Position numbers and translations under genes: made by a program
Notes under the pieces: generated by a model
What the model saw: only the letters and a program-made list of their open reading frames with translations
Database searches by the model: none
What the model was told of the DNA's origin: nothing
Shown here: positions 35,665-64,000 of the stretch, piece after piece
Numbering within the stretch: the first letter of the stretch is position 1
Layout of the letters: the number at the start of each line of letters is the position of its first letter
Virus record (IMG/VR): IMGVR_UViG_3300013093_000020
Source: a virus
Direction: 5' to 3' (one strand)
DNA length: 64,000 nucleotides

Positions 35665-38600
35665 TTAACGGTGAGCAAAGTTCTTAATAAAGAACGCTTG
35701 CGCCATCATTCCACCGTCAACGCCGGCATATGGCCCTTGCATGTGTACAGTGACCGGTATTTTTACGCTAGATCCGGGAGTGCCAGCAACTACGGTGCTG
35801 CCAATAATATTTGGACCACCAATCGTTACAGTACCGGCTGTAGTGTTTCCAGTAAATGTATTTGAACCGCCCTGGCTTAGACGAGCTGCAAGATAAGTTT
35901 TTACAGCTTTTTGTGTTGATAAAATGTTGTCACTATTTGCCACAAAAGTACCGTCAGTACTGAATTGAGTAATAATCACACTTGATCCGCCAACACTAAT
36001 ACCACCCAATGTCAACTGATTTAAACCTTGTAGTCCAAATTGGCTGGCACTAATTGTAACTGTGCCAGTTGCTTGTTGAACTCCAAACAAGTTACCAACT
36101 TTAAAGTTTCCGTCTTGGTCAGTCGATGTATAGAATACACGACCGTAGTTGTTTTCAATTGTTTGATTTTGTGGTGACAGCAATGTAGTTCCTGGAACAG
36201 GTACTCCTGGGTAATTACTTTGGTATTGGTCCCCGTAGCCAATATTTAAGAAGTCATGGTTGGTAGCACGAACCTGACTGTATTTTTCTCTAATTATCAA
36301 TGCAGTTCCTGTAGAAGGAGCTAACAATGTGCTCATACTTGGAGAAATTGTCAATAGCGCAGTAAAGTTAGGTGCAGTTGTTCCATATAGTCCAGTAGCA
36401 CTGGTAACTTTATAAATTGTACTATTGTTACTAATAACCAAATCGTCTCCAGGTCTTGGAAGATTTGACAAATTGTTTATGTACAAGTTATAATTGTTTT
36501 GATATTGATCTGCTGATCCAGAGCCATTTACGGCAATACTAGTTCCAGACACTGTGTATCCAGCACCATTAGATACAAATGTTGGGGTAGCTAACACGCC
36601 ATTTGCTGTTCTTAATGCATAAGGTGCTGTTGAAGTATTGTTTGGATCAAATATACTCAATGTTGGAGTTGAGGTATATCCGCTACCAGGTTCAAACTCA
36701 TATACAGTTGCCATAGTACCTGCCGATATATTTGGTCGGCCTTTTGTTTGTGCTCCTGCACTAGTAATGCTTCCTGAGTTAACTCCGCCTGTGCCGCCAA
36801 CAGTTACAAAAATACCAGTATAAGGGACAGTATTCATCACAGCAGTTACTACAGCAGTTGTACCGCCACTAGGTGGTGCAGAAACTGTAATAGTTGGAGT
36901 AGAAGTATATCCACTACCTGGTGTAATAATTGTAACTGCGGCAATGCCGCCATTTAATATTGTGCAAGTTGCAGTTGCTTGAACTGTTGCACCACCTCCA
37001 CTAAATGTCAATGTTGGTGCTGTTAAGTATCCACTTCCTGCAACTCCAATATTGTAACCTGTTACATACGCAGTACCTGTAAAACCAAATGCAGTTGCTG
37101 CAGAAGTAATTGCAACGCCAGTTCTAATTTTCCAGAAATTGCCATCCTCACTTGTATAGCAAGTTGCATTTCCAGAATTAACTGCGGTAAACACCCCTTG
37201 TCCGTAAGTTATCGAAGTTGCTGTGATTGAGTATGTGCTAGTATACCAAGTTATTCCGTCAAAGCTATAAGCAGGAGTTGCGCTAGTGCTTGAAACTGCT
37301 ACAAATCTACCGTTACCATAGGCAACGCTAGACCATGCTGTTGACACTGGTAATGTTCCGCTAGTCCACGATGCACCATTGTTAATACTATATGCGCTTT
37401 GTGTACCGCCCGATGCAACGGCTACCCATTTGTTAGCACCATAGGCCAACCCAGTCCAGGTAGTGTTAGGTAATCCAGATCCAGAACTCCATGTACTTCC
37501 GTAACTTGTCGAATATGCAACATTGCTAGTTCCTGATGCAATGGCAACGAATGTACCGTTACCGTAGACAATATTAGTCCAAGTGCTAATACTTGGCAAA
37601 TACGCTGTCTTCCAGCTTTGACCGCTTGAGTTTGATGAAATAACAAATGATCCTGGAATACTTGTTCCGCCAGTTGATATAATTACCCAAGTTCCTTGAC
37701 CGTATGCAACTCCGGTCCATGCCGCAGAGAATGGGATCGTTATTGAAGACCAATTATTTCCGTCAGAACTTCCAATAATTGTAGATCCGCCCGCAGGTAC
37801 AGCAATAAAATAATTTGCGCCATACGCTATTGCGGTATATCCTGCTCCAGCACTCTGACTTGGTAGTGTCAAATATGTTTGAGTAAATGCCGGTTGTGAG
37901 TAAGTTAATCTTGGTTCAATGTAATAAATTGTACTAGTATCAAATACTGAAACTGGAGGCGTGCCAGCAATAACATGATCCCAGCCAACTTGGCCCATCT
38001 GCATTGATCCTGTAGAACTTGCTAAAGTTACGGCCGATACACCATTGCTAGTAGCAGTAATAGTAAATGTATTTGTGCTACCGGCATTAATTGCTAGAAC
38101 ATAATATGTTGTACCTTGTGTCACGCCGCCAAACAACGGTGTTTGGAATAGTGTTGACATGCTACCGTACCCAGATGTTAGTGATTTTTTAGCGGTAGTA
38201 CTAGTTAGTGTCATAGATCCAGATCCAACAGCAGTTAAAGTAAATGTTGTTGGAGCGGTTCTAATAGTCATATAACCAGTAGCAGTTGACAATGCTACAG
38301 CTGATCCGCCAACTGTATTACTAATAGTAAATGTTGTTGCGTTGTTAATCGCTAGTATATAATACTGCGTTTCAGACACAAGTCCACCAAAACTATTGCC
38401 TGTAAAGAAAATTGGATTACCTGCAATAAATCCAGTAGTTGAAGTTACTGTGATCAAGTTTGTAATAGCTGCTGTTGATGTTGCAGTAGTATTGATTAAA
38501 CTTGTTGCTAGTTGAATATGATAAGTGTCTGGAATATTAGCAATATAATAAGTTGTACCTGCTACAACACTACCAAAAGTAGTTCCAGAAAATACTATAG

Positions 38601-41600
38601 GATTACATGGAACTAAGTTTGTAGTCGCCGTAACTGTGATCACATTAGGATATGTTACTGTGTTAATGACTACACTAGTTGCTGTTGCTGTTGCAGTAGT
38701 AGTTACTAATGCTGTACTAATAGTAAATTGTGTGCTACTAATAACATTATTAACATAGTACAGAGTTCCTGCAACTACACCGCCCAGTGTATTTCCTGTA
38801 AACTGAATGGGCATGTTTGGAGACATGTTAGTAGTTGATCCGACCATATAACCTGTGTTAGATGGGTAGTTCAAACTCATATTACCTACCGCAGTGTATA
38901 ATGATAAAATAGATCCGCTCTGTGTTGCACTAACTTGAATAGTATTATTGTCAAGAATATTACTAATATAATATGTGTAACCGCTTACTAACCCACCGAA
39001 TATGCCGCCGGCAGTGACAGTTAAAATACCAGATCCATTAGTTAATGCTAGAGTGGCACCGCCTACATATTGGCCAATAGTAATTGTTCCGCCTACACCC
39101 GGAGTTGGTATTGATAGAACATAGTATGTATTGCCTGCAACAATATTACCGAAAGCAGTACCGTTAAACACTATCGGCATACCTATTGTTATGCCAGCAG
39201 TGTTTGATAGCGTAACAAGATTACCTGCCGCAGATGTTTGTGTAGCACTAGTTGTGTAGGTAAATGCGTTACTAAATGTAATTGCCATACCAGTTGATAA
39301 CACACTAGTACCTGAAGTATAAATTGTGTTTATTTGCCCACCAGTTGTAGCTGTAACTGTAACCGTGGCTTGTGATGTTTGTGTCACTATTGAGTTATAG
39401 TAATTTGGCACAAATTGAATTGGCTGATTAACGTATAGAGTGTTAACATCTGCACTAGGATCTAGGCTAAACGCATTTGTTGCCGAACTTGAAGCATTAA
39501 TTAACACCGGAGCAAATGATTCTTTTAAGACTGTTGTATATTTGTTGCTGGCATTATATGATGATATAAATCCGTATTGGCCAACACCGGTACCGCTATT
39601 GATAAAAATTCTCATACCAATATAGTTAGTGGCAGAGTTAACATCAGATTGCGCCAAAGTAATATAACCAGTAGAACTACTGCCACCTTGTGCATTGTTA
39701 CTTGCTGTTAAATAACCAAGACCGCCGACTCCATTGCCGTTGTCTATCATTCGTGTTTGGAAAACACTATTTGAACGAATTTCATCGCCAACGGTTTGAA
39801 CACCAGTACCACTAGAATTGATAATATAATCAGCATAGGCAGTATATAATCCAGAAGTATTAGTTAGATAGAAGCCAAGTGATGCTGATCTTTCTAATTG
39901 TGCTCCGTAGACATAGGTATTACCAATTGTGCCAAAGCGAGTTCTTGGATATATCCTATATTGCAAGTTTGTATTTTGTGCAGTGGTATCGTATACTGAG
40001 AACCAAATTCTATACCAACCATTTTGTAACGTGTTTACACCATACTGTGTTGGTAATAATCCGCTACCATCTTGACTTGACGGAATAAGAGTAGCTGTGC
40101 TAAAATTAAATGTTACTGCACTTGCTCGTGTACTTGTGCCTGTAAAGAACGCATATAAATCAATTGCAGAAGCAGTACCTTGTTTAACATGTAAACTTAA
40201 AATATATGGTTGGTTAGATCCTGCAGGAACAGTGCCTGCACTACTAATACCAGACGGTGTTGAAATAGCACTACCTGTTAGATTAGTAACTGTAATAGTT
40301 AAATCGTTAGTGACGTTAACACCGCCTAACTGGCTTCCATAAATTTTGATTTGGTTACCCACAACATACCCGCTACCGCCACTGGCCACTGTAACAGAAT
40401 ATGATGTTGCATTGATAGTGATATTAAACAATGCTCCTGCACCGCTACCACTAATGTTTGATCCAGCGACGTTAGTAAAACTAGTTCCTTGCGGTGTTAC
40501 TGATACATTTTGATACAAGTAACTTGTGTCAGTACCGCCAGTGGCAGAAATAAATGTCCATGCATCGGCCAATGAGTCAGGACTTACTGTATTTTCAGTA
40601 AATGTTATATTACCGTCGTTGATCCAAGCACCGTTCTGAAAATTATTGCTATATTGCAACAAATTGGTCACGGCTGAAACATAGTTTTGACCGGCGTTAG
40701 TGTAAGTGTATTTCATTAGACCGTATGATCCAGCTGATGGGTATGTAAATGCTGGAATAACTGTAGCTGGTCCATATTGGTTATTAACTGTTGCACTGAT
40801 CGGAGTTTCGGTTGTGTCATACCCTTCAGCTACTAGTCCAAATGTACCGTATGAGCTGTTACCGTTTGTTGCACGAATTTTTCCGCCCGCTTCAGCAAAA
40901 TAACTTGTGTAAGCATAGTAAGAGAATACAGACACACATTCAGTAAGTGCTCCTGGTCCATAACACCAAATACCAATACCATCACTAATAACCTGTGTAA
41001 AGTCGTTTGAAACAATAGATTTATTCCCACCATTATGCAGTGTTCCGTCAATTTTACATCCAACGCTGCCTACACCAAATGTAGTGACGTTTTGTACATA
41101 AGGAGATCTACGGAAAATCCACGCTGTTGTATCACTTGGACCAGTGCCTGGATCTAACGCAACATAGGCATTACCTGTTGGTCGTTGAGTCGCATATTGA
41201 TTTTGTGCAGTTAATGTACCTAATTTTCCAACTAGACTCATATTGCGTAAGCCGCTGCCGTTTCTCATGCGGAACATGTCTACGATTGCATGCCCGCCGA
41301 TGGCTTGCATTAAACCATTACCTCCGGATAATGTTATCAATACAGATCCAGTTACTAATGATCCTTGTGTTTGTGATAGGTTAGACACTGACCCCACAGC
41401 GTATGCTAACCCATTAGGAGTAGTGCTTACTGTTATTGCTCCAGTAGCTGTTGTTAGTATGTAGTATACTGCTCCTGGAATAATATTTCCAAACCCAGTA
41501 TTAAATGCTATAGGTGCCCCGACTGTTAAACCAGCAGAACTAGTAACTGTTATGGTGCTGCCTAACGCTCCGGTTACTGTTATAGCCGGAGTACTAGAAC

Positions 41601-44526
41601 TACTAATAGCAAAATTTGATGAAGTTACTGTTGACCCTACAACATAATAAGTCTGTCCGGCTGTGATAGCAGATTCAAAAGCTGTCAGTGTTACTGGAAG
41701 ATTGTTATTAGTTGTTACAAATTGTATAGGGCATCCGTCATACAGCCCAGTAGTCGAACTAACGGTGAATAATTGTGTTGCCGCTGTAGAAATTGTTGTA
41801 TATGTATTATAAATTATCTTAGGTTGTACAACAACTCCGCGCAACTCGTCGCCAACTAATGCACAGTTTTCTGGAACTACAATTGGTAAAGATTCAGTAT
41901 AAGTTCCTGTTTTAACATAAATTGTTGAACTGATGCCAGAATTAGGAGTTGGTAAGTTTGTAGTGCTTTGTGATGCTAATGAATTGTAAATTAAATTAAA
42001 CAAAATATCAACATAAGTGTTGCCTGCACCGTTTGGGGCTAGTGGATTTGCTAAAGTTGTTTGTGATTCTACACCATTTAATCCCACTACTTGATTAATT
42101 CTTGATCCAGCAGCTATACCGTTTAATGCTTGATAGTTGTTTGCAGGTGCAGATTGATTGAGTACATTATTAATCAAACTATACATGTAGTTTAATGCAA
42201 TTACAAAATTAGGCATGTCTGCCGCAACTATAGTGCTAATAAAGGAATTTACACTACCAAAAGCAAAATAACTTTGTGCAGCTGCTACTGTTTGACTATT
42301 TCCACCTCGTGTAATATCATAAACAATAGCATCAATAATATATTCTGCATCTCGGATTGTTTCTGAAGGACCAACTGAGCTTGTATACCAAGTTCCATTA
42401 GTAACACCATTTAAATTATTGTTTAAAGAATATACAAGATAATTGTACATCTCAGTCACAATCCATAATTTATTTTTTGTTAAAATATTAGCAGTGTTTG
42501 GATATAATGTACCATTTAAAACATAGTTACATGCATAAGCAATAGATGCAAACGGTTGATCCCAGGTAGTACCATTAGTTAAGCTATTATCAACACCATT
42601 AGGTGCAACATAAAACACATTCTTTGTTTGGTTAATAGTCGACCATGTTGGTAATAGCACACCGGTAGCGCCAATAGTTGATCGCAATAGTTGTCCGGTA
42701 GTTCCTATTGGTAAGGCTGTGTTAGTAGGCGTAGTTGTTGATATATTGTAAGTTATATTACCTACAGTATTCAATGCATTGTGGCGAGCATGTAACACAT
42801 AAGGAATCCAGTATTGATTTGTAGTATCTTGATCTGGACGAGATTGTTTTGGTGAAGCTTGTATACAACGATATGTTGCATTTTGCCAAATAACTAAATC
42901 ACCTAGTAGATAGGTTGTTGTTGAATTCCAGAAACTTGCCCAATATGCTCCAGGGACGATTAAATTCCATGATGTTGAGTTAACTCCATAGAAATTAATA
43001 GTTTGGCCGTTAGTAAGTGCAGAATCAGGTGCTGAGCTTAATACTACTGTAGGAGTTCCAAATGTTCCATTGCCGGCAACCGTACCAGTAGCTGGATAAG
43101 TTAATATAACTGTTGATCCACTAATGCTTGCGACTTGTGATAAGCCATTTATGCCTGCGCCAATAACGCCTTGATTTACTGCTATGCCAGATGTACTACC
43201 TACGGTAATAGCGTTAGTACCAAAAGATACTAGACCGCTAACAGCAGATACAGTGTTTGCACTTAATGTAATTGTATTTGTTGCAATATTTTGTATAGTG
43301 GTTCCGCCAGCAATACCAGATGCGCTGACATTCATGCCTACTACTAGTCCGGCATTTGATGTTACTGTAATAGTCGGTGATCCGCTAGTGCCTGTTGCTG
43401 TGACTGTTACTGCGGCTGATGCAACCGTAGTAGTTACGGAACTTGCTAAACTAGCACTAATAATACTCTGGCCGCTGGCAAATCCGGAACCTATGGCAAT
43501 CATACCAGGAACTAGGGTATAGATACTTGATACAATTACTGTAGAACCAGAACTACCTGTTGAATTATATGTAACTGCTGATGAATAATTATTGGGATCT
43601 TGTGATGTGCTGTTGGCAATAGCAACATACAGTTCACCGTTTCTACGAACTACATCACCAATTTGATAACTAGTACCGCCAGTCCAATCTCCTGATGCTA
43701 GATACCCTTGGTTGAATAATGCCCAATCAGTGGCATCAGTATTTGGAATGTTGTTAGTATTATTATTAGTTAAACAGATATAGTCATAACCGCCATATTG
43801 TACAACGTCACCAGGTTGATATGCAGTACCTGAATTCCAAGTACCTAGATATTCTTCGCCTGGTAAGAATAAACTAAAATTACCAGCGGCCATTACTGGA
43901 CCTGATGTGTGCGCGATTGTACAAATGTATAAGTTAGCATCAACTTTTACAACATCTTGTACTTTGTACCTAAAAGAAGCTAGCCATGGTCCTTTGTAAT
44001 CAATACCTTGATTTAGAATAGTCCATGAACTTTGGTTGGCTTCAAGGCCAAGTGTTGCGCTAGCGGCAGAAGTATGGTTAGTGTTACAGACATAAACAAT
44101 ACCGCCATACTTGACAGCATCGCCAACACCGTAATTAGTATTTGGTAACCATGCAGTGTGCCAATTGGTAAATGTAGCCAGTGTTGTAAATTTAGAAAGA
44201 TCAAGAGTTGTTGAGCTTGTGTGATTAGCAGTACACACATACACAGCACCGCCATAGGTAACAATATTTCCTAGACTATAATAGGTACTTGGTGACCATG
44301 CGTTAGTCCAAGTTTTACCATCAAGAATTAAATTCCAATAAGGAGTGCTAGCACCGGCACCGGTTACATGATATAAATCTTGATAAAAATCTCCGCTAGT
44401 ATGTGGTACTAGGCAAACATACATTTTACCTTGATATGTAATGACTGCGTCTCTGTTATATGTAGTAGTAGTGGCCCACTGACCTGTGTAGTTGAATCGT
44501 AAACTACTAATTCTAAATTCTGGCAT
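35665..44526 (-). CDS. Giant multidomain fibre/baseplate protein (2953 aa), paralogue of 25751-35614
   Basis: Same domain order and shared motifs (GGNKS.V.NDFT, IRATNGNSSYG, VF.TSTDQDGNF.VGNLF.VQQATG). Confidence 0.85.
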   Translation of the reverse strand: MPEFRISSLRFNYTGQWATTTTYNRDAVITYQGKMYVCLVPHTSGDFYQDLYHVTGAGASTPYWNLILDGKTWTNAWSPSTYYSLGNIVTYGGAVYVCTANHTSSTTLDLSKFTTLATFTNWHTAWLPNTNYGVGDAVKYGGIVYVCNTNHTSAASATLGLEANQSSWTILNQGIDYKGPWLASFRYKVQDVVKVDANLYICTIAHTSGPVMAAGNFSLFLPGEEYLGTWNSGTAYQPGDVVQYGGYDYICLTNNNTNNIPNTDATDWALFNQGYLASGDWTGGTSYQIGDVVRRNGELYVAIANSTSQDPNNYSSAVTYNSTGSSGSTVIVSSIYTLVPGMIAIGSGFASGQSIISASLASSVTTTVASAAVTVTATGTSGSPTITVTSNAGLVVGMNVSASGIAGGTTIQNIATNTITLSANTVSAVSGLVSFGTNAITVGSTSGIAVNQGVIGAGINGLSQVASISGSTVILTYPATGTVAGNGTFGTPTVVLSSAPDSALTNGQTINFYGVNSTSWNLIVPGAYWASFWNSTTTYLLGDLVIWQNATYRCIQASPKQSRPDQDTTNQYWIPYVLHARHNALNTVGNITYNISTTTPTNTALPIGTTGQLLRSTIGATGVLLPTWSTINQTKNVFYVAPNGVDNSLTNGTTWDQPFASIAYACNYVLNGTLYPNTANILTKNKLWIVTEMYNYLVYSLNNNLNGVTNGTWYTSSVGPSETIRDAEYIIDAIVYDITRGGNSQTVAAAQSYFAFGSVNSFISTIVAADMPNFVIALNYMYSLINNVLNQSAPANNYQALNGIAAGSRINQVVGLNGVESQTTLANPLAPNGAGNTYVDILFNLIYNSLASQSTTNLPTPNSGISSTIYVKTGTYTESLPIVVPENCALVGDELRGVVVQPKIIYNTYTTISTAATQLFTVSSTTGLYDGCPIQFVTTNNNLPVTLTAFESAITAGQTYYVVGSTVTSSNFAISSSSTPAITVTGALGSTITVTSSAGLTVGAPIAFNTGFGNIIPGAVYYILTTATGAITVSTTPNGLAYAVGSVSNLSQTQGSLVTGSVLITLSGGNGLMQAIGGHAIVDMFRMRNGSGLRNMSLVGKLGTLTAQNQYATQRPTGNAYVALDPGTGPSDTTAWIFRRSPYVQNVTTFGVGSVGCKIDGTLHNGGNKSIVSNDFTQVISDGIGIWCYGPGALTECVSVFSYYAYTSYFAEAGGKIRATNGNSSYGTFGLVAEGYDTTETPISATVNNQYGPATVIPAFTYPSAGSYGLMKYTYTNAGQNYVSAVTNLLQYSNNFQNGAWINDGNITFTENTVSPDSLADAWTFISATGGTDTSYLYQNVSVTPQGTSFTNVAGSNISGSGAGALFNITINATSYSVTVASGGSGYVVGNQIKIYGSQLGGVNVTNDLTITVTNLTGSAISTPSGISSAGTVPAGSNQPYILSLHVKQGTASAIDLYAFFTGTSTRASAVTFNFSTATLIPSSQDGSGLLPTQYGVNTLQNGWYRIWFSVYDTTAQNTNLQYRIYPRTRFGTIGNTYVYGAQLERSASLGFYLTNTSGLYTAYADYIINSSGTGVQTVGDEIRSNSVFQTRMIDNGNGVGGLGYLTASNNAQGGSSSTGYITLAQSDVNSATNYIGMRIFINSGTGVGQYGFISSYNASNKYTTVLKESFAPVLINASSSATNAFSLDPSADVNTLYVNQPIQFVPNYYNSIVTQTSQATVTVTATTGGQINTIYTSGTSVLSTGMAITFSNAFTYTTSATQTSAAGNLVTLSNTAGITIGMPIVFNGTAFGNIVAGNTYYVLSIPTPGVGGTITIGQYVGGATLALTNGSGILTVTAGGIFGGLVSGYTYYISNILDNNTIQVSATQSGSILSLYTAVGNMSLNYPSNTGYMVGSTTNMSPNMPIQFTGNTLGGVVAGTLYYVNNVISSTQFTISTALVTTTATATATSVVINTVTYPNVITVTATTNLVPCNPIVFSGTTFGSVVAGTTYYIANIPDTYHIQLATSLINTTATSTAAITNLITVTSTTGFIAGNPIFFTGNSFGGLVSETQYYILAINNATTFTISNTVGGSAVALSTATGYMTIRTAPTTFTLTAVGSGSMTLTSTTAKKSLTSGYGSMSTLFQTPLFGGVTQGTTYYVLAINAGSTNTFTITATSNGVSAVTLASSTGSMQMGQVGWDHVIAGTPPVSVFDTSTIYYIEPRLTYSQPAFTQTYLTLPSQSAGAGYTAIAYGANYFIAVPAGGSTIIGSSDGNNWSSITIPFSAAWTGVAYGQGTWVIISTGGTSIPGSFVISSNSSGQSWKTAYLPSISTWTNIVYGNGTFVAIASGTSNVAYSTSYGSTWSSGSGLPNTTWTGLAYGANKWVAVASGGTQSAYSINNGASWTSGTLPVSTAWSSVAYGNGRFVAVSSTSATPAYSFDGITWYTSTYSITATSITYGQGVFTAVNSGNATCYTSEDGNFWKIRTGVAITSAATAFGFTGTAYVTGYNIGVAGSGYLTAPTLTFSGGGATVQATATCTILNGGIAAVTIITPGSGYTSTPTITVSAPPSGGTTAVVTAVMNTVPYTGIFVTVGGTGGVNSGSITSAGAQTKGRPNISAGTMATVYEFEPGSGYTSTPTLSIFDPNNTSTAPYALRTANGVLATPTFVSNGAGYTVSGTSIAVNGSGSADQYQNNYNLYINNLSNLPRPGDDLVISNNSTIYKVTSATGLYGTTAPNFTALLTISPSMSTLLAPSTGTALIIREKYSQVRATNHDFLNIGYGDQYQSNYPGVPVPGTTLLSPQNQTIENNYGRVFYTSTDQDGNFKVGNLFGVQQATGTVTISASQFGLQGLNQLTLGGISVGGSSVIITQFSTDGTFVANSDNILSTQKAVKTYLAARLSQGGSNTFTGNTTAGTVTIGGPNIIGSTVVAGTPGSSVKIPVTVHMQGPYAGVDGGMMAQAFFIKNFAHR

Positions 44527-50214: not shown

Positions 50215-51213
50215 TTATACAGTTACACTAGGTTGGATATATACACCGGCTGGTGCAATAACCTTCCATGGAGCAGTTTGACCTGTTGTATATGTCCAAG
50301 GACCTGATCCGTATTGTGTGACTACTGCTCTACGAGCAGTTAGTTTTGTAATATAATATGTACCACCACCTGCATCACTAGCTGTTAAATTCATTTGACC
50401 TGCTGCCAATGAACCTGTAGCAACTGCAACCAATTTACATTGTCCAATGTATTGACCGGTGGCACCAGTCTTAACTAGATAACGATGACTTGATTCTTGT
50501 TTGATAATGTCATACTCTTGTGCGCTTCCTGAACCGGCGACATAGGCAAAACCAACTAATGATGGGCCAACTGGGAATTGTTGTGAGCTATCGCCTGAGA
50601 AAGTTGTAGTCAATGTTGGAACATTTAGGCTAGGACTTGTACCACCTAGTGTAGCCCATGTCAATGTTGGTGCTGAGTTATAACCACTACCTGCTGTTGT
50701 TACAGCAATGCTCTTAACACGGAATTTAACTGTGGCTTGTGCGTTAGAACCGCCAGCGCCTTGGATGCCCCAAGTAGTGATACCAGTTCCGTCAATGCTT
50801 GTAAATTCACCGCGACTTGTAATGTTGATAGCAGACACATTACCAGAACCGTTTGTGTTTATAGTAAGAACTGGGGTTACACTTGCTTGACCATACAATC
50901 CAACTAGAGCTGTAACAGCTGCACCTGTTTGATTAATTGTATAACCTGTATTTGTTCCACCGACAGTGATGGATTCAATTTCCCATGTAACCGCTAATAC
51001 CGCTGTTACACCAGTTGGCTCATCCGGAGCTGCAACTGTCAATGTTGGAAAATGTTTGTATGTATCGTTAATATTGATACTACCGCGACCTGCATCTGGC
51101 TGGCTAACGCTGGCAATTCCTTCGCCACCGATACCGCTGTTTACACCGATTTGACCATATGTCTCACCGGCATTTTTATTACCGAAAAATCTTTTCTTAA
51201 TTGGGCGTCCCAT
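50215..51213 (-). CDS. Structural protein after the capsid gene, possibly head decoration
   Basis: MGRPIKKRFFG start, Thr/Gly-rich, own late promoter and strong AAGGAG SD. Confidence 0.65.
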   Translation of the reverse strand: MGRPIKKRFFGNKNAGETYGQIGVNSGIGGEGIASVSQPDAGRGSININDTYKHFPTLTVAAPDEPTGVTAVLAVTWEIESITVGGTNTGYTINQTGAAVTALVGLYGQASVTPVLTINTNGSGNVSAINITSRGEFTSIDGTGITTWGIQGAGGSNAQATVKFRVKSIAVTTAGSGYNSAPTLTWATLGGTSPSLNVPTLTTTFSGDSSQQFPVGPSLVGFAYVAGSGSAQEYDIIKQESSHRYLVKTGATGQYIGQCKLVAVATGSLAAGQMNLTASDAGGGTYYITKLTARRAVVTQYGSGPWTYTTGQTAPWKVIAPAGVYIQPSVTV

Positions 51214-51240
51214 TTTGTTTCTCCTTAGTTGATTTGTGTC

Positions 51241-51298
51241 TAGCGTTCTAGGCTATACGCGGTTGGGGTTCCGCATAAACTCACCCTATGTGAGCGGA
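51241..51298 (-). ncRNA. Candidate structured 5' leader (three hairpins)
   Basis: CUCAC/GUGAG, UAUGCGG/CCGCGUA and UAGC/GCUA stems between the late promoter and the SD. Confidence 0.45.
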
Positions 51299-55646: not shown

Positions 55647-57413
55647 TTATGCAGCTGGAGGTGTTCCAGCACCACCCGGTGCCATTCCCGGAGCTGCAGG
55701 TGCTGCTCCAGCGCCGGCTGCGGCAGCTTCGTCAGCTGGATTAGTCATACCTTCTGGTGCTTCTAGGTCGCCAGCAGTACTCATGTCGCTATCGATGCCG
55801 GCAGAACTGAGTCCTGCACTACGCAATTCTCCGCTAGAATCAGTATGTGTAGGTTCACCTTTACCTGCTTCCTCGGCCCACATGCGTTCATTTTCTGCCA
55901 TTTCTTCGTCGGTTAATCCTAAGAAACGCTTGAGTGCAAAACGCTTGCTCATGTAGGGAATAGCTTGTACTGTATTAAATGTATTGATGCGCTCAGTGTC
56001 CATAGCAGCTTGACGACTGCTAGCAAAGTTCATTGGCGGATTGAACTTCAACTCAAATAAACTTGTATCTATGTTAAGTCCTTTTGAGTAAACAAATCGT
56101 TTAAATTCTAAATCAAAGCGTTCTGTAAGCAACATTTGTAAGCGTTCACAGTACTTGTTGAAGCGCAATTCTTGGATATAAGCTGTTCCCACACGCCCGT
56201 CATTGTAACTGCTTTGACTGTCTTCAGCGCCTGTTGGCAAATAACTGCTAGGAATACGCAAGCCACGGAATAATTTATTAGTAAAATATTTTAAGTCTTC
56301 AATTTCGCCCAAATTTGTTCCGCCTGGCAGTGTTTCTACCTTAGATCCACGACCATCTGCGGTGCTTGGGAAGAAATAATCTTCATTAATACTCAATGGA
56401 TTATAAGCACTGTCTATGACATTGGCTCCACCACCAGTCTGGCTAGGTATGCGTCGTTGATGTATTTCATTCTTTACACGCTCGACAAATGCCATAGCCA
56501 TGTGTGCAGGCATATTTCCAACGTCTACATGGAAAACTCTGCGTTCTGGTGCTCGTTGTATACGATAAATGATAATCGCATCCTCTAGTAGTTCTTTCTG
56601 CTTGTAGACTTTGAAGACATCTTCAAGCAGGCTAGTACCAAAAGGATACATGTTGTCTAGCCCTTCGCTTAGGCTTAGATGTATCACATGCTCGGCATTG
56701 ATAGCATGTTCAGTTTGTCCCATGCTGAAGCGGCTGCCTGTACCGCTTTGTGGGAAACTACCGGCTCCACGAGCTTGCGATCCCGAACCTAGATAACCTG
56801 ATCCGCCACCGCCTGACCCACTACCGCCGGCCATTTCTCTAGGATTAACATTAGGTGTAATTTGAGTAGCAACTAGATTTTCAAAGTTAGGCGCCAGATC
56901 TTTGATAATGTATTGTTCTGGCTTTTTACCGTCACTTTCATTGACAATTACTTTAGTAACTTTGCTAGGATCAACATAGACCCATTTCTGTGTTTCTGGA
57001 TCGCGAATAAAAAATGCATCACCGTATTTGAATGTGTTACGGAAGATACGGAATATTCTTGTGTCAAATTTTTGTAGCTTTGACCACTGTTGTAGGTACT
57101 CGCCTAGGATCTTAATTTCACTATTTGTAGCCTTGTGGCGCCAAAAAACTTGAAAAGGTGTCTTACCATCTTTGTTCTTCTGTGTGCAGAATTCTGCTAG
57201 AATATCTAAGGCAGCATTAATTTCAGGATCGCTATCCATGGTCTCATACTGCATGTAACGCTCTGCACGATTAGGTGCTCCGGCGTATACATCTGGTAGA
57301 TAACTTGAATAATTTGAACGAGCAGGTCCAGCTCTATTGCTAGAATTAATGCCACTGACCGGGCTCATTATTGTGCCAACGGGTGCTGGGCTAAAATATT
57401 TTTTCCAACTCAT
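55647..57413 (-). CDS. gp20: Portal vertex protein
   Basis: LLEDAIIIYRIQRAPERRVFHVDVGNMP, EDYFFP, VETLPGG.NLGEI.D..YF. Confidence 0.97.
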   Translation of the reverse strand: MSWKKYFSPAPVGTIMSPVSGINSSNRAGPARSNYSSYLPDVYAGAPNRAERYMQYETMDSDPEINAALDILAEFCTQKNKDGKTPFQVFWRHKATNSEIKILGEYLQQWSKLQKFDTRIFRIFRNTFKYGDAFFIRDPETQKWVYVDPSKVTKVIVNESDGKKPEQYIIKDLAPNFENLVATQITPNVNPREMAGGSGSGGGGSGYLGSGSQARGAGSFPQSGTGSRFSMGQTEHAINAEHVIHLSLSEGLDNMYPFGTSLLEDVFKVYKQKELLEDAIIIYRIQRAPERRVFHVDVGNMPAHMAMAFVERVKNEIHQRRIPSQTGGGANVIDSAYNPLSINEDYFFPSTADGRGSKVETLPGGTNLGEIEDLKYFTNKLFRGLRIPSSYLPTGAEDSQSSYNDGRVGTAYIQELRFNKYCERLQMLLTERFDLEFKRFVYSKGLNIDTSLFELKFNPPMNFASSRQAAMDTERINTFNTVQAIPYMSKRFALKRFLGLTDEEMAENERMWAEEAGKGEPTHTDSSGELRSAGLSSAGIDSDMSTAGDLEAPEGMTNPADEAAAAGAGAAPAAPGMAPGGAGTPPAA

Positions 57414-59854: not shown

Positions 59855-60679
59855 ATGGCCATAAACAACCCTTTACAAAAGTATTTTAGACAGCCTAAGA
59901 TCTTTATCAAAATCCCCAGCGGTGGTGTCTACTGCCAAACTGGCACTATCAGTGGAGATCCTAGCAAGTTGGCCGTGTTTGGTATGACCGGCATGGATGA
60001 AATACTGCTGAAAACTCCAGATGCACTGCTATCCGGAGAAAGTGTAGTTAGGATTATAGAAAGCTGTGTGCCAGAAATCAAAGATGCTTGGGACCTCAGT
60101 AATATTGATATAGATGCTGTACTAAGTGCTATAAGGATTGCTACATACGGACAATCAATGTCGGTTACAAGAAACTGCCAAAGTTGCGGAGAAGAAAACG
60201 ATTACGATCTAGATCTTAGTTACATAATAGATCACTATAGCAAATGTGTTTACAACAGTCGATTAGTGCTAGACGACCTAGTTGTTACGGTCAAACCATT
60301 AACATATCGTCAAATGACTGATTTTAATTTAAGAAATTTTGAAATACAGCAACAGCTAAAGCAATTAGATTTAGAAGACAAGGCTAATAAAAAAATCTTA
60401 GCTGACATGTTTATACAGCTAGGAGAACTACAAAATGAAATATTTGCCGCCAGTATCGAAAGTGTCAGCACAGACAGTGTCACAGTTACCGAACGCGGAC
60501 ATATCATCGAGTGGGTACAAAACGCTGACATGGTGTTATTTGATCAATTAAAAGAACTAGCAGTGTCTAATCAACAAAATTGGGAAATACCTCAATTTGA
60601 TGTTGTATGCTCTCATTGTAATGCAGAGGGAAAAACAGCTATTCAACTTGACGCCGCAAGTTTTTTCGCGAAAGCCTAA
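59855..60679 (+). CDS. gp26: Baseplate hub assembly protein (T4 gp26-like)
   Basis: NPLQKYFRQP...IPSGG, MT..DEILLKTPDAL, D.DAVL.AIRIATYG and two CxxC pairs. Confidence 0.8.
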   Translation: MAINNPLQKYFRQPKIFIKIPSGGVYCQTGTISGDPSKLAVFGMTGMDEILLKTPDALLSGESVVRIIESCVPEIKDAWDLSNIDIDAVLSAIRIATYGQSMSVTRNCQSCGEENDYDLDLSYIIDHYSKCVYNSRLVLDDLVVTVKPLTYRQMTDFNLRNFEIQQQLKQLDLEDKANKKILADMFIQLGELQNEIFAASIESVSTDSVTVTERGHIIEWVQNADMVLFDQLKELAVSNQQNWEIPQFDVVCSHCNAEGKTAIQLDAASFFAKA

Positions 60680-60900: not shown

Positions 60901-61676
60901 TTTGCTGCAGGAGCAGTCGGAGCTTGCGTAGGAAATTTCTTTCTAAATAAATGACCGTAGGTTGGTGATCCCGGTCTTATATCCTTGTACATATTCCAGT
61001 AAACAGTTTCAGCTTCCTTGGGATTATTTTCATCAGGCAAATTACTATCCGGTGGCGGAACATTAGATGCCGGAGGTTTTGGAATTTTACCATCGTCGTT
61101 GCTCGGAGGTGACGAAACATTGTCTATGGTACTGATACCAGTTGACGGGCCACCTTTAAGCAACCAATGTACAGGATCCTTGTCAGGAATAGGTCGATAC
61201 CAACCTTGCTTTTCCATCCATCGTGGATCTACTGTCTTGGAAACATCGATGGCATTTTTATGGAATATAATATCTTTGCGACCTTTATACTTAGGATCGT
61301 CAGGGTTTATTGGAATATAGACATTAGGATCTTTGTTCAGCCAACGGTTGTATAAATCTTTCTGCTGTTGATATGTGCGCTCTTGGCTAGTGATAGGTAG
61401 TTCTTTACCAAATTCAGCTTTGTAAGCCTGTTTGAGTTTTTCCACTGCCTGTTTGAATTGGGGCTGTACAGTTGGTGCAGGTTCTGCATGAGTAATACCA
61501 GATGCTTCGTCCGGAGTAACATCATAGACATAGACTTTGACTTTGTCTATCTGAGCCTTGTATTGAGGATAAGTTTTAATAATATAAGCTTCAAAAGTCT
61601 CATGTGCCATATTGTCGGGCACATCAAATCTTTCTTCTTTACCATCAGGAAATACTACTAAAACTTTCCTGGTCAT
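60897..61676 (-). CDS. Putative Zn-dependent peptidoglycan peptidase (M15/DD-peptidase-like) with a Pro-rich tail
   Basis: ITSQERTYQQQKDLY...H..AIDV...GWYRP...DPVHW. Confidence 0.65.
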   Translation of the reverse strand: MTRKVLVVFPDGKEERFDVPDNMAHETFEAYIIKTYPQYKAQIDKVKVYVYDVTPDEASGITHAEPAPTVQPQFKQAVEKLKQAYKAEFGKELPITSQERTYQQQKDLYNRWLNKDPNVYIPINPDDPKYKGRKDIIFHKNAIDVSKTVDPRWMEKQGWYRPIPDKDPVHWLLKGGPSTGISTIDNVSSPPSNDDGKIPKPPASNVPPPDSNLPDENNPKEAETVYWNMYKDIRPGSPTYGHLFRKKFPTQAPTAPAAN

Positions 61677-62572
61677 TTTTTATCCCAGCCGTGGAATTCC
61701 ATGTGCCCAGCATCTGATTTTTCATCAGATGAAGATGACGAACTGCTGCTGTTTGATTGAGATTTAGGTACAGGTACAGGCACGGGCTCCGGGGTCGAAG
61801 ACTTTGCGGCTTCTTTCTGACTGGAGATCCAACTTAGGACCTGTCCTGGTAAAGGGTCTAACATGGCTTGATTGTTATCTGCCAGTTTGTCAACTTGTAG
61901 CGCATACCATTCACCAAATTTAGTCACTGTGTCCCAGAAAGCAGGATTACGATTTAGTTCTCCTCCAACCTTCATATCAGCATAAGTGCCGCACCATCCA
62001 GCTACTACATCTCTTACTCCGTCACTGTTGGCGATCCTTGATCCGATATAGTCAGGTACAGCACGGGGAATAAACCCTAGACCAAATTGGCGTAGTGCTC
62101 CTTTGAGCAGGCCACGACTGGCCATACCTGCTGCTAAATTACCTACTAGTTCAGCCAGTAAATGTTGGCGATTGGCAGTAAACTGCTCCTGTGTCATGCC
62201 ATTCTCATGATTGTCAAGCTGTCGCTTGAACATGGCATCTGCATTGATAAAATTTGTAATAGGTTGAAGTACTTCGGGTAGTACTACTAGATATCTAATA
62301 GCTAGATTTACACTCTTAACAGCTACAGATGTAGTAAGTTTAGCTGCTCCAACTCCAGGAATACTGCTACCAGTACGAGATTTTCTTAATTCTTTTTCAC
62401 GACGCTTCAGTTCTGCTTCTCGAGCTGCTAGTTCTTTTTCTCGAAGTGCTGCTTCTCTCGCAGCCAGTTTTTCAGCCGCAGTCATTTCTTTACCTGTAGT
62501 CTTTCCCCCAAACTTTAACCAGTCCAGTACGCCTTCATTTGTTTGTTCGCTGATAATATCTGTGATTTTCAT
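61673..62572 (-). CDS. Hypothetical protein, possibly an internal head protein
   Basis: Likely start is ATG 62572 (MKITDIISE, capsid-targeting-like leader) rather than the track's TTG at 62578; late promoter at 62595-62600. Confidence 0.7.
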   Translation of the reverse strand: MKITDIISEQTNEGVLDWLKFGGKTTGKEMTAAEKLAAREAALREKELAAREAELKRREKELRKSRTGSSIPGVGAAKLTTSVAVKSVNLAIRYLVVLPEVLQPITNFINADAMFKRQLDNHENGMTQEQFTANRQHLLAELVGNLAAGMASRGLLKGALRQFGLGFIPRAVPDYIGSRIANSDGVRDVVAGWCGTYADMKVGGELNRNPAFWDTVTKFGEWYALQVDKLADNNQAMLDPLPGQVLSWISSQKEAAKSSTPEPVPVPVPKSQSNSSSSSSSSDEKSDAGHMEFHGWDKK

Positions 62573-62611
62573 ATTCAATTCCGAGAAGTTTACATATTTA
62601 CCATTGTGTGG

Positions 62612-62692
62612 AGATGTACTGCGTACATCTGTTCTTCGCTTCCGCTCGAACTTGTCTTCTTATTAGAAAAGGCAATAAAACGCGAAGCGTTT
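62612..62692. repeat. Cluster of short inverted repeats, two with GNA triloops
   Basis: AGATGTAC-tgc-GTACATCT (62612-62630) and AAACGC-GAA-GCGTTT (62678-62692), plus two imperfect hairpins between them. Confidence 0.7.
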
Positions 62693-62694
62693 AA

Positions 62695-63070
62695 GATATT
62701 ATCCAGATTGTTCAGTCACACTTTGCCCAGGCAGGGCAAAGGACATTATCCGAGTTGAACATGTCACTTAGCGTTAGGGCATTACAGAGGCGGTCATCCG
62801 GTACCTCGAGCCCCGTCTTTATACGACGGCAATCTGCTGACATACGCTAACACATCCGCAGATCCGTGGGTTTTCCCCACTCCTTTAGCCTTTTTAAAAA
62901 TTTACGGCAAGCATCAAACTAGTTGTATGAAGGCATATCTAGTCATCGTCCGGTCAAGGATAGTGATGCATGACCCTGCCGTCAAGCAAGGAATTTCCGT
63001 GACTGCGATCCGAGATCCAGCTGTAAGGGCACAAAATTACATCGCCAGTGCGGGCTTATTTGACGGTTTT
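62695..63070 (-). ncRNA. Candidate large structured non-coding RNA
   Basis: About ten helices and several loop pairings in an interval with no credible ORF; G-U pairs favour the minus strand. Confidence 0.7.
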
Positions 63071-63075
63071 AGAGC

Positions 63076-63510
63076 CTAGTTTTCTTGGAGTTTACGAATG
63101 TGTGAACCATGTACACGCACTTGAATATGACCATTATAGTAGTCGTTTGATTCAAGAACTCTGCGTGAAAACTGTTCGCGGGCCTCAACATAGCTGCATT
63201 CTGCCTTGCTACGGCAATAAAAAAGTATCTCTCTACGGAAGTTTTCAACTCCTAGAGCTTGTACATCACGAGTTAATTCAGGTGACGATCCATAGTAATC
63301 TCGCCAGTCGGAATCAATTTTGCTTCTGATCTTCTTTTTCTTTTTGTTGCCGTTCTTTAATTTTACTGTTCGATATGTGGTCTTTGAGAATTTTGCCAGC
63401 TTTTTGCCTATATACATGCGCCCTGTTGAGATGTTAGTGATGATGTAGACGAAGCCCGCACAGTCGTCCGGGAGTTCTTCTACAGTTTGGGAATTGAAAA
63501 GCCATGTCAT
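63076..63510 (-). CDS. GIY-YIG family nuclease (catalytic domain only, Seg-like)
   Basis: GFVYIITN...MYIGKK...YYGSS...F.REIL...E...YYN. Confidence 0.88.
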   Translation of the reverse strand: MTWLFNSQTVEELPDDCAGFVYIITNISTGRMYIGKKLAKFSKTTYRTVKLKNGNKKKKKIRSKIDSDWRDYYGSSPELTRDVQALGVENFRREILFYCRSKAECSYVEAREQFSRRVLESNDYYNGHIQVRVHGSHIRKLQEN

Positions 63511-63515
63511 GACTT

Positions 63516-63779
63516 CTAATTATCATCATTGCCTTGTGCCTTGAGTTGTTTTTGAGCGAGCCTACGAGCTTTGGCCTGTTTCATGTCTTCGTTCTTCCAG
63601 TGACGCCATTCTTGTAGCACAATACGGCGTTCACTGCATAATCTGCGTATTTCACTCATAGCATTACGAGTGTCCATACATGCCCGTTTGGTCCCAGTGT
63701 TCATCCAACGCTGGTTAGCTTCGAAGTAAGTTCGAAATGCAGCCATTAACTGAGCATGTAATTCTTCATCCTGATGCAT
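63516..63779 (-). CDS. Hypothetical small basic helical protein
   Basis: 87-aa ORF translationally coupled (TAATG) to gp46. Confidence 0.7.
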   Translation of the reverse strand: MHQDEELHAQLMAAFRTYFEANQRWMNTGTKRACMDTRNAMSEIRRLCSERRIVLQEWRHWKNEDMKQAKARRLAQKQLKAQGNDDN

Positions 63780-64000
63780 TATTCTGTGACTTCTAGATCC
63801 GTGGCATATGATGTAAAGCCATTTTCTTTGATGACTTTGAGTACATTGTTAACACGACCTACAAGCTCGTCCCTGTGCGATATTAAGAACACATTCTTTT
63901 TGCGTTCTCGAGTCATCTTTTTCAGCACAGCCAGTGCAGATTCGACGCCTGAGCTGTCTAGTCCATTGTCTATGAGCTCGTCTACAAACAGCAAGTTTAC
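63779..64000 (-). CDS. gp46: Recombination exonuclease ATPase subunit (T4 gp46/SbcC), C-terminal fragment
   Basis: Walker B/D-loop LLFVDELIDNGLD and H-loop FLISH. Confidence 0.9.
   Translation of the reverse strand, partial: VNLLFVDELIDNGLDSSGVESALAVLKKMTRERKKNVFLISHRDELVGRVNNVLKVIKENGFTSYATDLEVTE

What the first reader, a model, noticed from the sequence alone, without database searches (positions are those of the whole stretch)
62695..63510. Large, multiply pseudoknotted ncRNA candidate immediately downstream of a stand-alone GIY-YIG nuclease
Seen: the only ~500-nt gene-free gap in the window starts at the GIY-YIG stop and is densely paired. Helices: 62974-79/62986-91, 62911-16/62964-69, 62917-22/62939-44, 62866-70/62876-80, 62832-37/62858-63, 62813-17/62825-29, 62787-93/62798-807, 62721-28/62734-41 and 62709-14/62756-61. 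Hairpin loops have complementary partners elsewhere, implying pseudoknots: UUGACG(G) 62979-85 with 63060-66, UUAGCG(U) 62844-50 with 62768-74, GCCUU 62930-34 with 62888-92, and UGACC 62952-56 with 62971-75. Stem 62839-44/62851-56 needs three G-U pairs on the minus strand (A-C mismatches on plus), pointing to an RNA co-oriented with the nuclease. GGAUAAU occurs twice near the 3' end. The 144-aa protein has no separate C-terminal DNA-binding domain but has a very basic insert (KLKNGNKKKKKIRSK). Established: HEARO/omegaRNA-IscB is a precedent for an ornate RNA beside a nuclease gene. Inference: a nuclease-RNA ribonucleoprotein (possibly RNA-guided), or a new ribozyme/ornate phage RNA. This is my best candidate for an undescribed system in the window.
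Basis: partly seen in the sequence, partly recalled or inferred. Interest (0 to 1): 0.87.

Follow-up and report, generated by a model that had tools for sequence, protein, structure and literature searches.

The report
Extended Polynucleobacter-1 twin-box phage RNA
The gap behind the small nuclease gene of this uncultured T4-like lake phage encodes a real, multiply knotted non-coding RNA of about 455 bases; its first third is the catalogued orphan motif Polynucleobacter-1, the rest shows one 7-letter word twice, and it does not need the nuclease.

Summary
Window 63066-62612 (minus strand) is a conserved, covarying RNA of about 455 nt that starts 10 nt after the GIY-YIG stop codon.

- **Known part:** positions 63056-62908 are a full-length match to Rfam RF01718 (Polynucleobacter-1, 73.4 bits). 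That paper's own alignment file already holds a 3' tail with one pseudoknot and notes the upstream gene family, so novelty is partly refuted.
- **Structure:** on 122 non-redundant homologues my 26-helix model, with five pseudoknots, pairs 87% of cells. Shuffles give 73% and slid controls 35-41%.
- **Not catalogued:** the 3' 200 nt. It carries two 7-nt boxes (62751-45 and 62704-698, GGAUAAU) that are identical in 121 of 121 homologues although four of their positions vary.
- **Partner search:** I found no base-pairing partner and no nuclease residue that tracks the boxes.
- **Independence from the nuclease:** Polynucleobacter chromosomes carry the same RNA in tRNA-Phe islands, beside DUF6641 and a 188-aa integrase, with no GIY-YIG gene. 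Three isolated phages that carry the nuclease lack the RNA.

An RNA-guided nuclease is therefore unlikely, and the function remains unknown. This scan has reported the same RNA before on other genomes.

The parts
63076..63510 (-). 144-aa stand-alone GIY-YIG nuclease gene (SegE-like); catalytic domain only
   Evidence: Pfam PF19835, E = 4.6e-33, covering residues 3-129; phrog_447; invariant Y22, Y33, G35, E109 and N126 in the family alignment
62612..63066 (-). Full structured RNA, about 455 nt, from pseudoknot A to hairpin P14
   Evidence: Conserved at 50-70% identity in homologues; 26-helix model pairs 87.3% of cells against 73.1% in shuffles, 0 of 500
62908..63056 (-). Rfam RF01718 Polynucleobacter-1 match (5' domain, helices P1-P5)
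   Evidence: cmscan 73.4 bits, cut-off 37, model positions 1-141 of 141
63060..63066 (-). 5' strand of pseudoknot A (CCGUCAA); pairs with the P3 loop at 62979-62985
   Evidence: helix 1: 88.5% paired; first pair AU 40, GC 37, UA 14, GU 12, CG 10
63044..63055 (-). Pseudoknot B: GCC 63055-53 pairs with GGC 63046-44 in the P1 loop
   Evidence: helix 2: 94.8% paired; GC 99 and AU 21
62832..62863 (-). Long hairpin P7 with conserved loop UUAGCGU
   Evidence: helix 11: 92.7% paired; all 12 pairs change on both sides
62768..62774 (-). 3' strand of pseudoknot D (ACGCUAA); pairs with the P7 loop at 62844-62850. This is the tail pseudoknot of the 2010 alignment
   Evidence: helix 12: 97.5% paired, 7 of 7 pairs covary; SS_cons_1 line in the alignment file
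62794..62826 (-). Pseudoknot E: UCG 62826-24 pairs with the P9 loop UGA 62796-94
   Evidence: helix 13: 100% paired; UA 67 and CG 54 at one pair, GC 74, AU 37 and GU 10 at the next
62777..62813 (-). Helix P8 enclosing hairpin P9 (GAGGUACCGGAUGACCGCCUC)
   Evidence: helices 14-16: 94-99% paired
62745..62751 (-). Twin box 1 (GGAUAAU), unpaired in an 11-nt bulge after invariant AACUC
   Evidence: Identical to box 2 in 121 of 121 homologues, with 4 variable positions
62698..62704 (-). Twin box 2 (GGAUAAU), in a single-stranded linker after invariant AAUCU
   Evidence: both boxes also change together in two paralogues within one bacterial genome
62721..62741 (-). Hairpin P11 between the twin boxes
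   Evidence: helix 20: 93.7% paired
62678..62692 (-). Hairpin P12, terminator-like in this window (AAACGC UUC GCGUUU followed by a U-rich tail)
   Evidence: the stem covaries (helix 22), but the U-tract is not conserved in homologues
62612..62650 (-). Hairpins P13 (UUCGAGCGGAAGCGAAGAA, conserved GAGCG..GCGAA core) and P14
   Evidence: helices 23-26: 83-98% paired; both are also present in the bacterial form
61673..62578 (-). Next gene (301 aa, no family match); not conserved across loci

Best explanation
The gap is the gene for a stand-alone structured RNA that belongs to mobile elements, here T4-like freshwater phages and elsewhere Polynucleobacter genomic islands. It is the full-length form of the Polynucleobacter-1 motif.

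Shown: the fold, the twin boxes, and the fact that the RNA occurs without the nuclease.

Inferred:
- In this phage the RNA is made as the tail of the GIY-YIG transcript, because it starts 10 nt after the stop codon.
- It folds into a rigid scaffold held by five pseudoknots.
- The scaffold displays two unpaired, identical 7-nt words (GGAUAAU) about 47 nt apart, each after a fixed pyrimidine-rich lead-in (AACUC or AAUCU).
- The RNA acts in trans, and the twin words bind two copies, or the two symmetric halves, of one outside partner. A nucleic acid is more likely than a protein.
- The 7-nt word sets which partner is bound.
For: - Fold: 87.3% of cells pair against 73.1% in shuffles (0 of 500) and 35-41% when slid; 91 of 114 pairs change on both sides. 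RF01718 scores 73.4 bits.
- Twin boxes: identical in 121 of 121 homologues with 4 variable positions and at least 9 word variants. Both lie in regions with no conserved pairing.
- No internal partner: no column of the RNA pairs with them.
- Deep conservation of the design: the bacterial form has very different words (AGCGAAA), again twice, behind the same AACUC and AAUCU lead-ins. Two paralogues 18 kb apart in one genome differ by the same C-to-A change in both boxes.
- Not a 5' leader: in several loci the next gene is on the opposite strand, and the downstream genes vary.
- Independence from the nuclease: the bacterial islands have DUF6641, the RNA and a 188-aa integrase, with no SegE-like GIY-YIG detected.
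- No room for its own promoter here: pseudoknot A begins 10 nt after the stop codon. Where an extra ORF is inserted, the RNA again begins right after that ORF's stop.
Against: - No partner was found. The cognate word and its complement are not enriched within 3-7 kb of flanks compared with non-cognate words.
- Identity of two direct repeats could also reflect DNA-level sites.
- The near-constant adjacency to the GIY-YIG gene in phages remains unexplained if the two are unrelated in function.
Confidence: 0.45

Rival explanations
1. Nuclease-RNA ribonucleoprotein. The RNA binds the domain-poor GIY-YIG enzyme and aims or regulates it, with the twin boxes acting as two short guides for a two-fold symmetric DNA site.
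For: - Tight adjacency in this phage clade.
- The protein is a bare catalytic domain with a basic stretch.
- In bacteria the same RNA sits beside another bare catalytic domain, a 188-aa tyrosine recombinase whose Pfam match spans residues 6-176.
Against: - The RNA exists in genomes where no such nuclease was detected.
- The nuclease family matches 498 isolated-phage records, and the three inspected have no RNA or gap downstream.
- The basic stretch is family-wide.
- No nuclease residue tracks box variants: best normalised mutual information is 0.18-0.38.
- Extra ORFs can separate the two.
- There is no long variable guide segment.
Confidence: 0.12
2. A cis-acting part of the messenger RNA: a 3' structure that stabilises, terminates or processes the GIY-YIG transcript, or insulates it from the variable genes downstream.
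For: - It starts 10 nt after the stop codon.
- P12 is terminator-like in this window.
- It lies at the border between the replication/recombination genes (gp46-like) and a variable gene slot ahead of a convergent baseplate gene.
Against: - About 455 nt with five covarying pseudoknots and sequence-identical boxes is far more than stabilisation or termination needs.
- In bacteria it stands alone, divergent from its upstream neighbour, so it must have its own promoter.
- The U-tract after P12 is not conserved.
Confidence: 0.18
3. The twin boxes are DNA-level sites, such as iterons or recombination cores read by one protein, embedded in an RNA gene. Their identity would reflect that protein's specificity.
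For: - Identity rather than complementarity is the pattern seen in iterons and in crossover cores.
- A tyrosine recombinase gene is the neighbour in the bacterial islands.
Against: - The phage record shows no integrase, although it is only about 41% complete.
- The islands carry separate full-length integrase-sized genes (418 and 424 aa) next to tRNA-Phe end repeats.
- No inverted-repeat arms flank the boxes.
- The surrounding sequence evolves under RNA pairing rules with many G-U pairs.
Confidence: 0.1
4. A ribozyme, or an RNA that assembles with itself like other large ornate RNAs, whose boxes form contacts between RNA copies.
For: Its size and knotted fold, and its home in phages and islands, resemble other large ornate bacterial RNAs (my own knowledge; not tested here).
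Against: - No Rfam ribozyme or intron match down to E = 10.
- Identical words cannot pair with each other by standard rules.
- No self-complementary element that varies with them was found.
Confidence: 0.08

Closest known systems
Polynucleobacter-1 RNA motif (Rfam RF01718; Weinberg et al. 2010, Genome Biol 11:R31, PMC2864571)
   Same: The 5' 149 nt match the whole model at 73.4 bits. The upstream gene is the same family the paper noted: one of its scaffolds encodes the same ...YYNGHIQVRVHGSHI C-terminus. The paper's alignment file already has a tail up to the GGUACCGG..CCGCC hairpin and the 7-bp pseudoknot.
   Different: The Rfam model covers one third of the RNA. Three things are not in the motif, Rfam or the paper text: the 5' pseudoknot A that starts before model position 1, pseudoknots B and E, and the 3' 200 nt with the twin boxes and hairpins P12-P14. 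The paper found no example in a sequenced phage; here the RNA is in a T4-like phage contig and in most of about 150 further viral contigs fetched here.
HEARO / omega RNA with IscB (RNA-guided nuclease)
   Same: An ornate RNA encoded beside a small nuclease gene.
   Different: Co-occurrence is not obligate in either direction. There is no variable guide at an end, the nuclease fold is unrelated (GIY-YIG), and no co-variation between protein and RNA was seen.
T4 Seg-type free-standing GIY-YIG homing endonucleases (for example SegB in the tRNA gene region)
   Same: A free-standing GIY-YIG gene next to stable-RNA genes in a T4-like genome; Pfam assigns the protein to the SegE-like domain family.
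   Different: The protein lacks the DNA-binding extension of Seg enzymes. The family shows one matched place per record in 498 isolated-phage records, often mislabelled NAD synthetase, which is unlike a sporadic homing gene. Homing was not tested.
Type III toxin-antitoxin RNA repeats (ToxI-like)
   Same: Short direct repeats within a pseudoknotted RNA of phages and mobile elements.
   Different: Only a 7-nt core plus a few flanking bases is repeated, not whole tandem units, and no ToxN-like gene is adjacent.

Membership tests
Rfam RF01718 Polynucleobacter-1 RNA | Covariance-model score at or above the curated cut-off (37 bits) over the full model | tested here: met
   73.4 bits, model positions 1-141 of 141, minus strand
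Rfam RF01718 Polynucleobacter-1 RNA | Model helices P1-P5 supported by compensatory changes | tested here: met
   P1 98.6%, P2 81.9%, P4 98.4% and P5 99% of cells paired, with changes on both sides. P3 reaches only 53% in this alignment
Rfam RF01718 Polynucleobacter-1 RNA | Location downstream of a GOS11034-type gene, and the tail pseudoknot from the authors' alignment | tested here: met
   The upstream gene shares its C-terminal sequence with the authors' scaffold. Pseudoknot D is 97.5% paired
RNA-guided nuclease system (IscB/omega-RNA type) | Obligate co-occurrence of the RNA and the nuclease | tested here: not met
   The RNA is present in 5 bacterial genomes where no SegE-like GIY-YIG was detected. 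Three isolated phages with the nuclease have no RNA
RNA-guided nuclease system (IscB/omega-RNA type) | A hypervariable guide segment at one end of a conserved scaffold | tested here: not met
   Both ends are conserved structure. The only programmable-looking parts are two internal 7-nt boxes
RNA-guided nuclease system (IscB/omega-RNA type) | Physical binding of the RNA by the nuclease and RNA-dependent cleavage | not testable with these tools
   Needs biochemistry
GIY-YIG nuclease superfamily (SegE-like domain, PF19835) | Domain match and conserved catalytic-motif residues | tested here: met
   E = 4.6e-33. Y22, Y33-I34-G35, E109 and N126 are invariant in 7 diverse members
Group I intron carrying a homing endonuclease gene | Intron core recognisable and a host gene interrupted | tested here: not met
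   No intron family matches down to E = 10. The flanking ORFs are separate genes that vary between loci
Intrinsic terminator (hairpin P12) | G+C-rich stem followed by a conserved U-tract | tested here: inconclusive
   Present in the window, but the tail is not U-rich in many homologues and conserved hairpins follow it

The most novel reading that the evidence does not exclude
The RNA is a portable, programmable adaptor for bare catalytic DNA enzymes. Its two identical 7-nt words would pair with the two symmetric halves, or the shared crossover core, of a DNA site. It would bring in whichever minimal enzyme is encoded next to it: a 144-aa GIY-YIG nuclease in phages, a 188-aa catalytic-domain-only tyrosine recombinase in Polynucleobacter islands. 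That would be a new class of RNA-directed DNA cutting or recombination.
Probability: 0.06. Interest if true: 0.95.

Novelty: new variant of a known kind. Interest (0 to 1): 0.6.

Why it matters
Polynucleobacter-1 has been an orphan motif since 2010. This work shows it is only the first third of a roughly 455-nt RNA with five pseudoknots, shared by lake T4-like phages and bacterial genomic islands.

Its core shows an unusual evolutionary signal: two words that must stay identical rather than complementary. That turns a catalogue entry into a testable question, namely what reads the two words.

The answer could reveal a new way for phages and mobile islands to recognise a partner, possibly each other, since related RNAs sit in both. 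If the RNA only serves its own transcript, the interest is modest.

Tried and rejected
- **Conserved CACUAUCC (62965-58) as pairing partner of the boxes.** It fits 7 of 8 bases in the window but does not change when the boxes change. Rejected.
- **A partner inside the RNA.** Full 7-of-7 complements (G-U allowed) to the cognate word are no more frequent than to non-cognate words: 0.66 against 0.74 per RNA. No column covaries with the boxes.
- **A partner in the 3-7 kb flanks.** Neither the cognate word nor its complement is enriched compared with control words.
- **Extra copies of the box motif or its complement in the window.** Not enriched.
- **Co-evolution of the GIY-YIG protein with the boxes.** None beyond shared ancestry.
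- **Boxes as a template-jump repeat giving an endless reading frame.** The complementary strand of the 47-nt unit is stop-free in the window by my hand inspection, but homologues printed carry UCA or UUA in the unit. Rejected.
- **A small protein encoded in the gap (43-aa ORF 62843-62712).** The two boxes fall in different frames and the region evolves by paired changes. Rejected.
- **The RNA gene as integrase attachment site in bacteria.** The island ends are repeats of the tRNA-Phe 3' end, not of the RNA. Rejected.
- **A 10-mer match to CTC plus the word at G051 position 408788.** It lies inside a coding region with no flank similarity; taken as chance.
- **Cultured phages.** blastn of the RNA against 50,697 phage records found nothing.
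- **Literature.** Searches found no later work on this motif. One preprint could not be opened.

Full report
**Setting.** The window comes from a 149.7-kb uncultured virus record. It is T4-like:
- portal gp20 at 55647-57413;
- baseplate hub at 59855-60679;
- an SbcC/gp46-like gene at 63779-64000.

On the minus strand the order is gp46-like gene, an 87-aa ORF, a 144-aa GIY-YIG gene (63510-63076; PF19835, E = 4.6e-33), a 497-nt gap, then a 301-aa ORF with no family match.

**What the gap is.** Rfam places a full-length Polynucleobacter-1 RNA (RF01718) at 63056-62908 on the minus strand, at 73.4 bits against a cut-off of 37. No other family matches, even at E = 10.

The source paper (Weinberg et al. 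2010, PMC2864571) says three things:
- most examples lie downstream of genes of family GOS11034, possibly related to a cyanophage P-SSM2 gene;
- the 3' half is not always detected;
- none was found in a sequenced phage.

Its Stockholm file holds a tail and a 7-bp pseudoknot. One of its scaffolds encodes the same nuclease C-terminus and the same downstream sequence as this window.

**Conservation and linkage.**
- 579 viral stretches encode close relatives of the nuclease.
- In 46 of 50 of those records RF01718 is present once, above its cut-off.
- Three of the four misses still have the 3' domain. The fourth has only 377 nt of sequence left downstream.
- Searching the viral collection with a 17-nt RNA motif alone returned 80 loci. 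Of about 70 informative ones, 65 have the nuclease gene directly upstream. Four more have one extra ORF wedged exactly between the stop codon and the RNA start. Three hits were chance matches.
- The wider neighbourhood is: gp46-like gene, then an optional small ORF, radical-SAM or DUF6071 gene, then the nuclease, the RNA, variable ORFs, and a convergent baseplate hub gene.
- Because the next gene is sometimes on the other strand, the RNA is not a 5' leader.

**Structure.** I aligned the window RNA with 121 non-redundant homologues (A2) and scored a 26-helix model that includes five pseudoknots.

| Measure | Model | Control |
|---|---|---|
| Cells paired | 87.3% | 73.1% in shuffles (0 of 500 reach it); 35-41% when slid |
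| Pairs with changes on both sides | 91 of 114 | 74 in shuffles |
| Covariation score | 0.370 | 0.153 in shuffles |

The pseudoknots:
- **A:** 63066-60 with 62985-79. It starts 10 nt after the stop codon, outside the Rfam model.
- **B:** 63055-53 with 63046-44.
- **C:** 62934-30 with 62892-88. Moderate support.
- **D:** 62850-44 with 62774-68. All seven pairs covary.
- **E:** 62826-24 with 62796-94. 100% of cells paired.

Two conserved hairpins, P13 and P14 (62650-62612), follow the terminator-like P12, so the RNA runs to about 62612. Its helix 62813-17/62825-29 keeps only three pairs.

**Twin boxes.** Mutual information picked out column pairs that are always the same letter rather than complementary. 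On the independent alignment A2, the 7-nt cores 62751-45 and 62704-698 are identical in 121 of 121 sequences. Four positions vary: G/A, G/C/A, A/G and U/A/G. The three bases before each box are invariant and different: CUC before box 1, UCU before box 2. At least nine words occur. Both boxes lie in unpaired stretches of the model.

Every test was negative:
- an internal complement;
- the flanks;
- the rest of the window;
- residues of the nuclease.

**Bacterial form.**
- Six betaproteobacterial genomes, mostly Polynucleobacter, carry the same architecture with the word AGCGAAA twice, behind the same AACUC and AAUCU lead-ins, followed by P13- and P14-like hairpins.
- RF01718 scores 70-104 bits in the five searched, with one or two copies per genome.
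- In one genome two copies 18 kb apart carry AGCGAAA and AGAGAAA; in each copy both boxes carry that copy's word.
- In the copies examined the RNA has a divergent DUF6641 gene upstream. A 188-189-aa protein that is only the catalytic domain of a tyrosine recombinase lies downstream, directly or after one ORF.
- In the one genome examined in detail, both copies lie in tandem islands bounded by repeats of the tRNA-Phe 3' end. Each island also has a 418- or 424-aa integrase-sized gene.
- No SegE-like GIY-YIG gene was detected in these genomes.
- The phage record shows no integrase or DUF6641.

Conversely, the nuclease family matches 498 isolated-phage records at under 60% identity. Melnitz, S-SSM7 and phiM7 have neither the RNA nor a gap downstream. 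The basic stretch is shared by all of them.

**Reading.**
- The RNA is real and autonomous. Its link to the nuclease is strong in this phage clade but is not required in either direction.
- I rate a trans-acting scaffold that shows two copies of a specificity word as the best explanation (0.45).
- Next come a cis role in the transcript (0.18), a nuclease ribonucleoprotein (0.12), DNA-level sites (0.10) and a ribozyme or self-assembling RNA (0.08).
- Both neighbours, nuclease and recombinase, are bare catalytic domains. That keeps a small chance (about 0.06) alive for a portable RNA adaptor for DNA enzymes.

**Earlier notes of this scan.** After I had found the twin boxes, a look-up showed that the scan had reported the same extended twin-box RNA on other genomes. 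A second look-up showed the bacterial island RNA beside a small recombinase. My results agree with those notes. What I add for this window:
- the helix-by-helix test;
- pseudoknots B and E;
- the paralogue pair with different words;
- the tRNA-Phe island frame;
- the negative test for co-evolution with the nuclease.

Noticed in passing
window 51211-51295 (-): A full-length match to Rfam RF02980 (freshwater-2 RNA, 69.9 bits against a cut-off of 49.9). It lies just upstream of the 332-aa gene 50215-51213, after a hairpin with a U-tail at about 51340-51318.
   Followed up: no
window 25751-35614 and 35665-44526 (-): Two adjacent giant ORFs of 3287 and 2953 aa in the structural region of the phage.
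   Followed up: no
L005, L006, L042, L063, L073, L098, L105, L149, L153: An extra ORF (278-341 aa where measured, no Pfam match) is inserted exactly between the GIY-YIG stop codon and the RNA start. The RNA again begins right after the new stop codon, which suggests a recurrent insertion point.
   Followed up: partly
GenBank phage records, e.g. L083 2471-2908, L084 2450-2863: Members of this small GIY-YIG family are widely annotated as 'NAD synthetase' in cyanophage and other phage genomes. Pfam assigns them to the SegE-like GIY-YIG nuclease domain, so the label looks like a propagated error.
   Followed up: partly
G051 contig 1, about 392080-423120 (L329, L324, L330, L325, L331): A complete tRNA-Phe gene is followed by at least nine copies of its 3' end, each with a terminator-like hairpin. 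They bound tandem islands and small cassettes; two of the islands carry the RNA.
   Followed up: partly
window 62632-62650 (-); also L213, L249, L284: Hairpin P13 keeps a GAGCG-loop-GCGAA core in both the phage and bacterial forms. It looks like tandem G-A pairs beside a GNRA-type loop and could be a protein-binding motif. In the bacterial form the 7-mer AGCGAAA also occurs in P13 and in the P9 loop.
   Followed up: no
L025, L028, L057: Contigs with the twin-box 3' domain but no detectable RF01718 5' domain. In L057 the RNA lies about 2.3 kb from the nuclease gene. This hints that the two RNA domains are separable modules.
   Followed up: no
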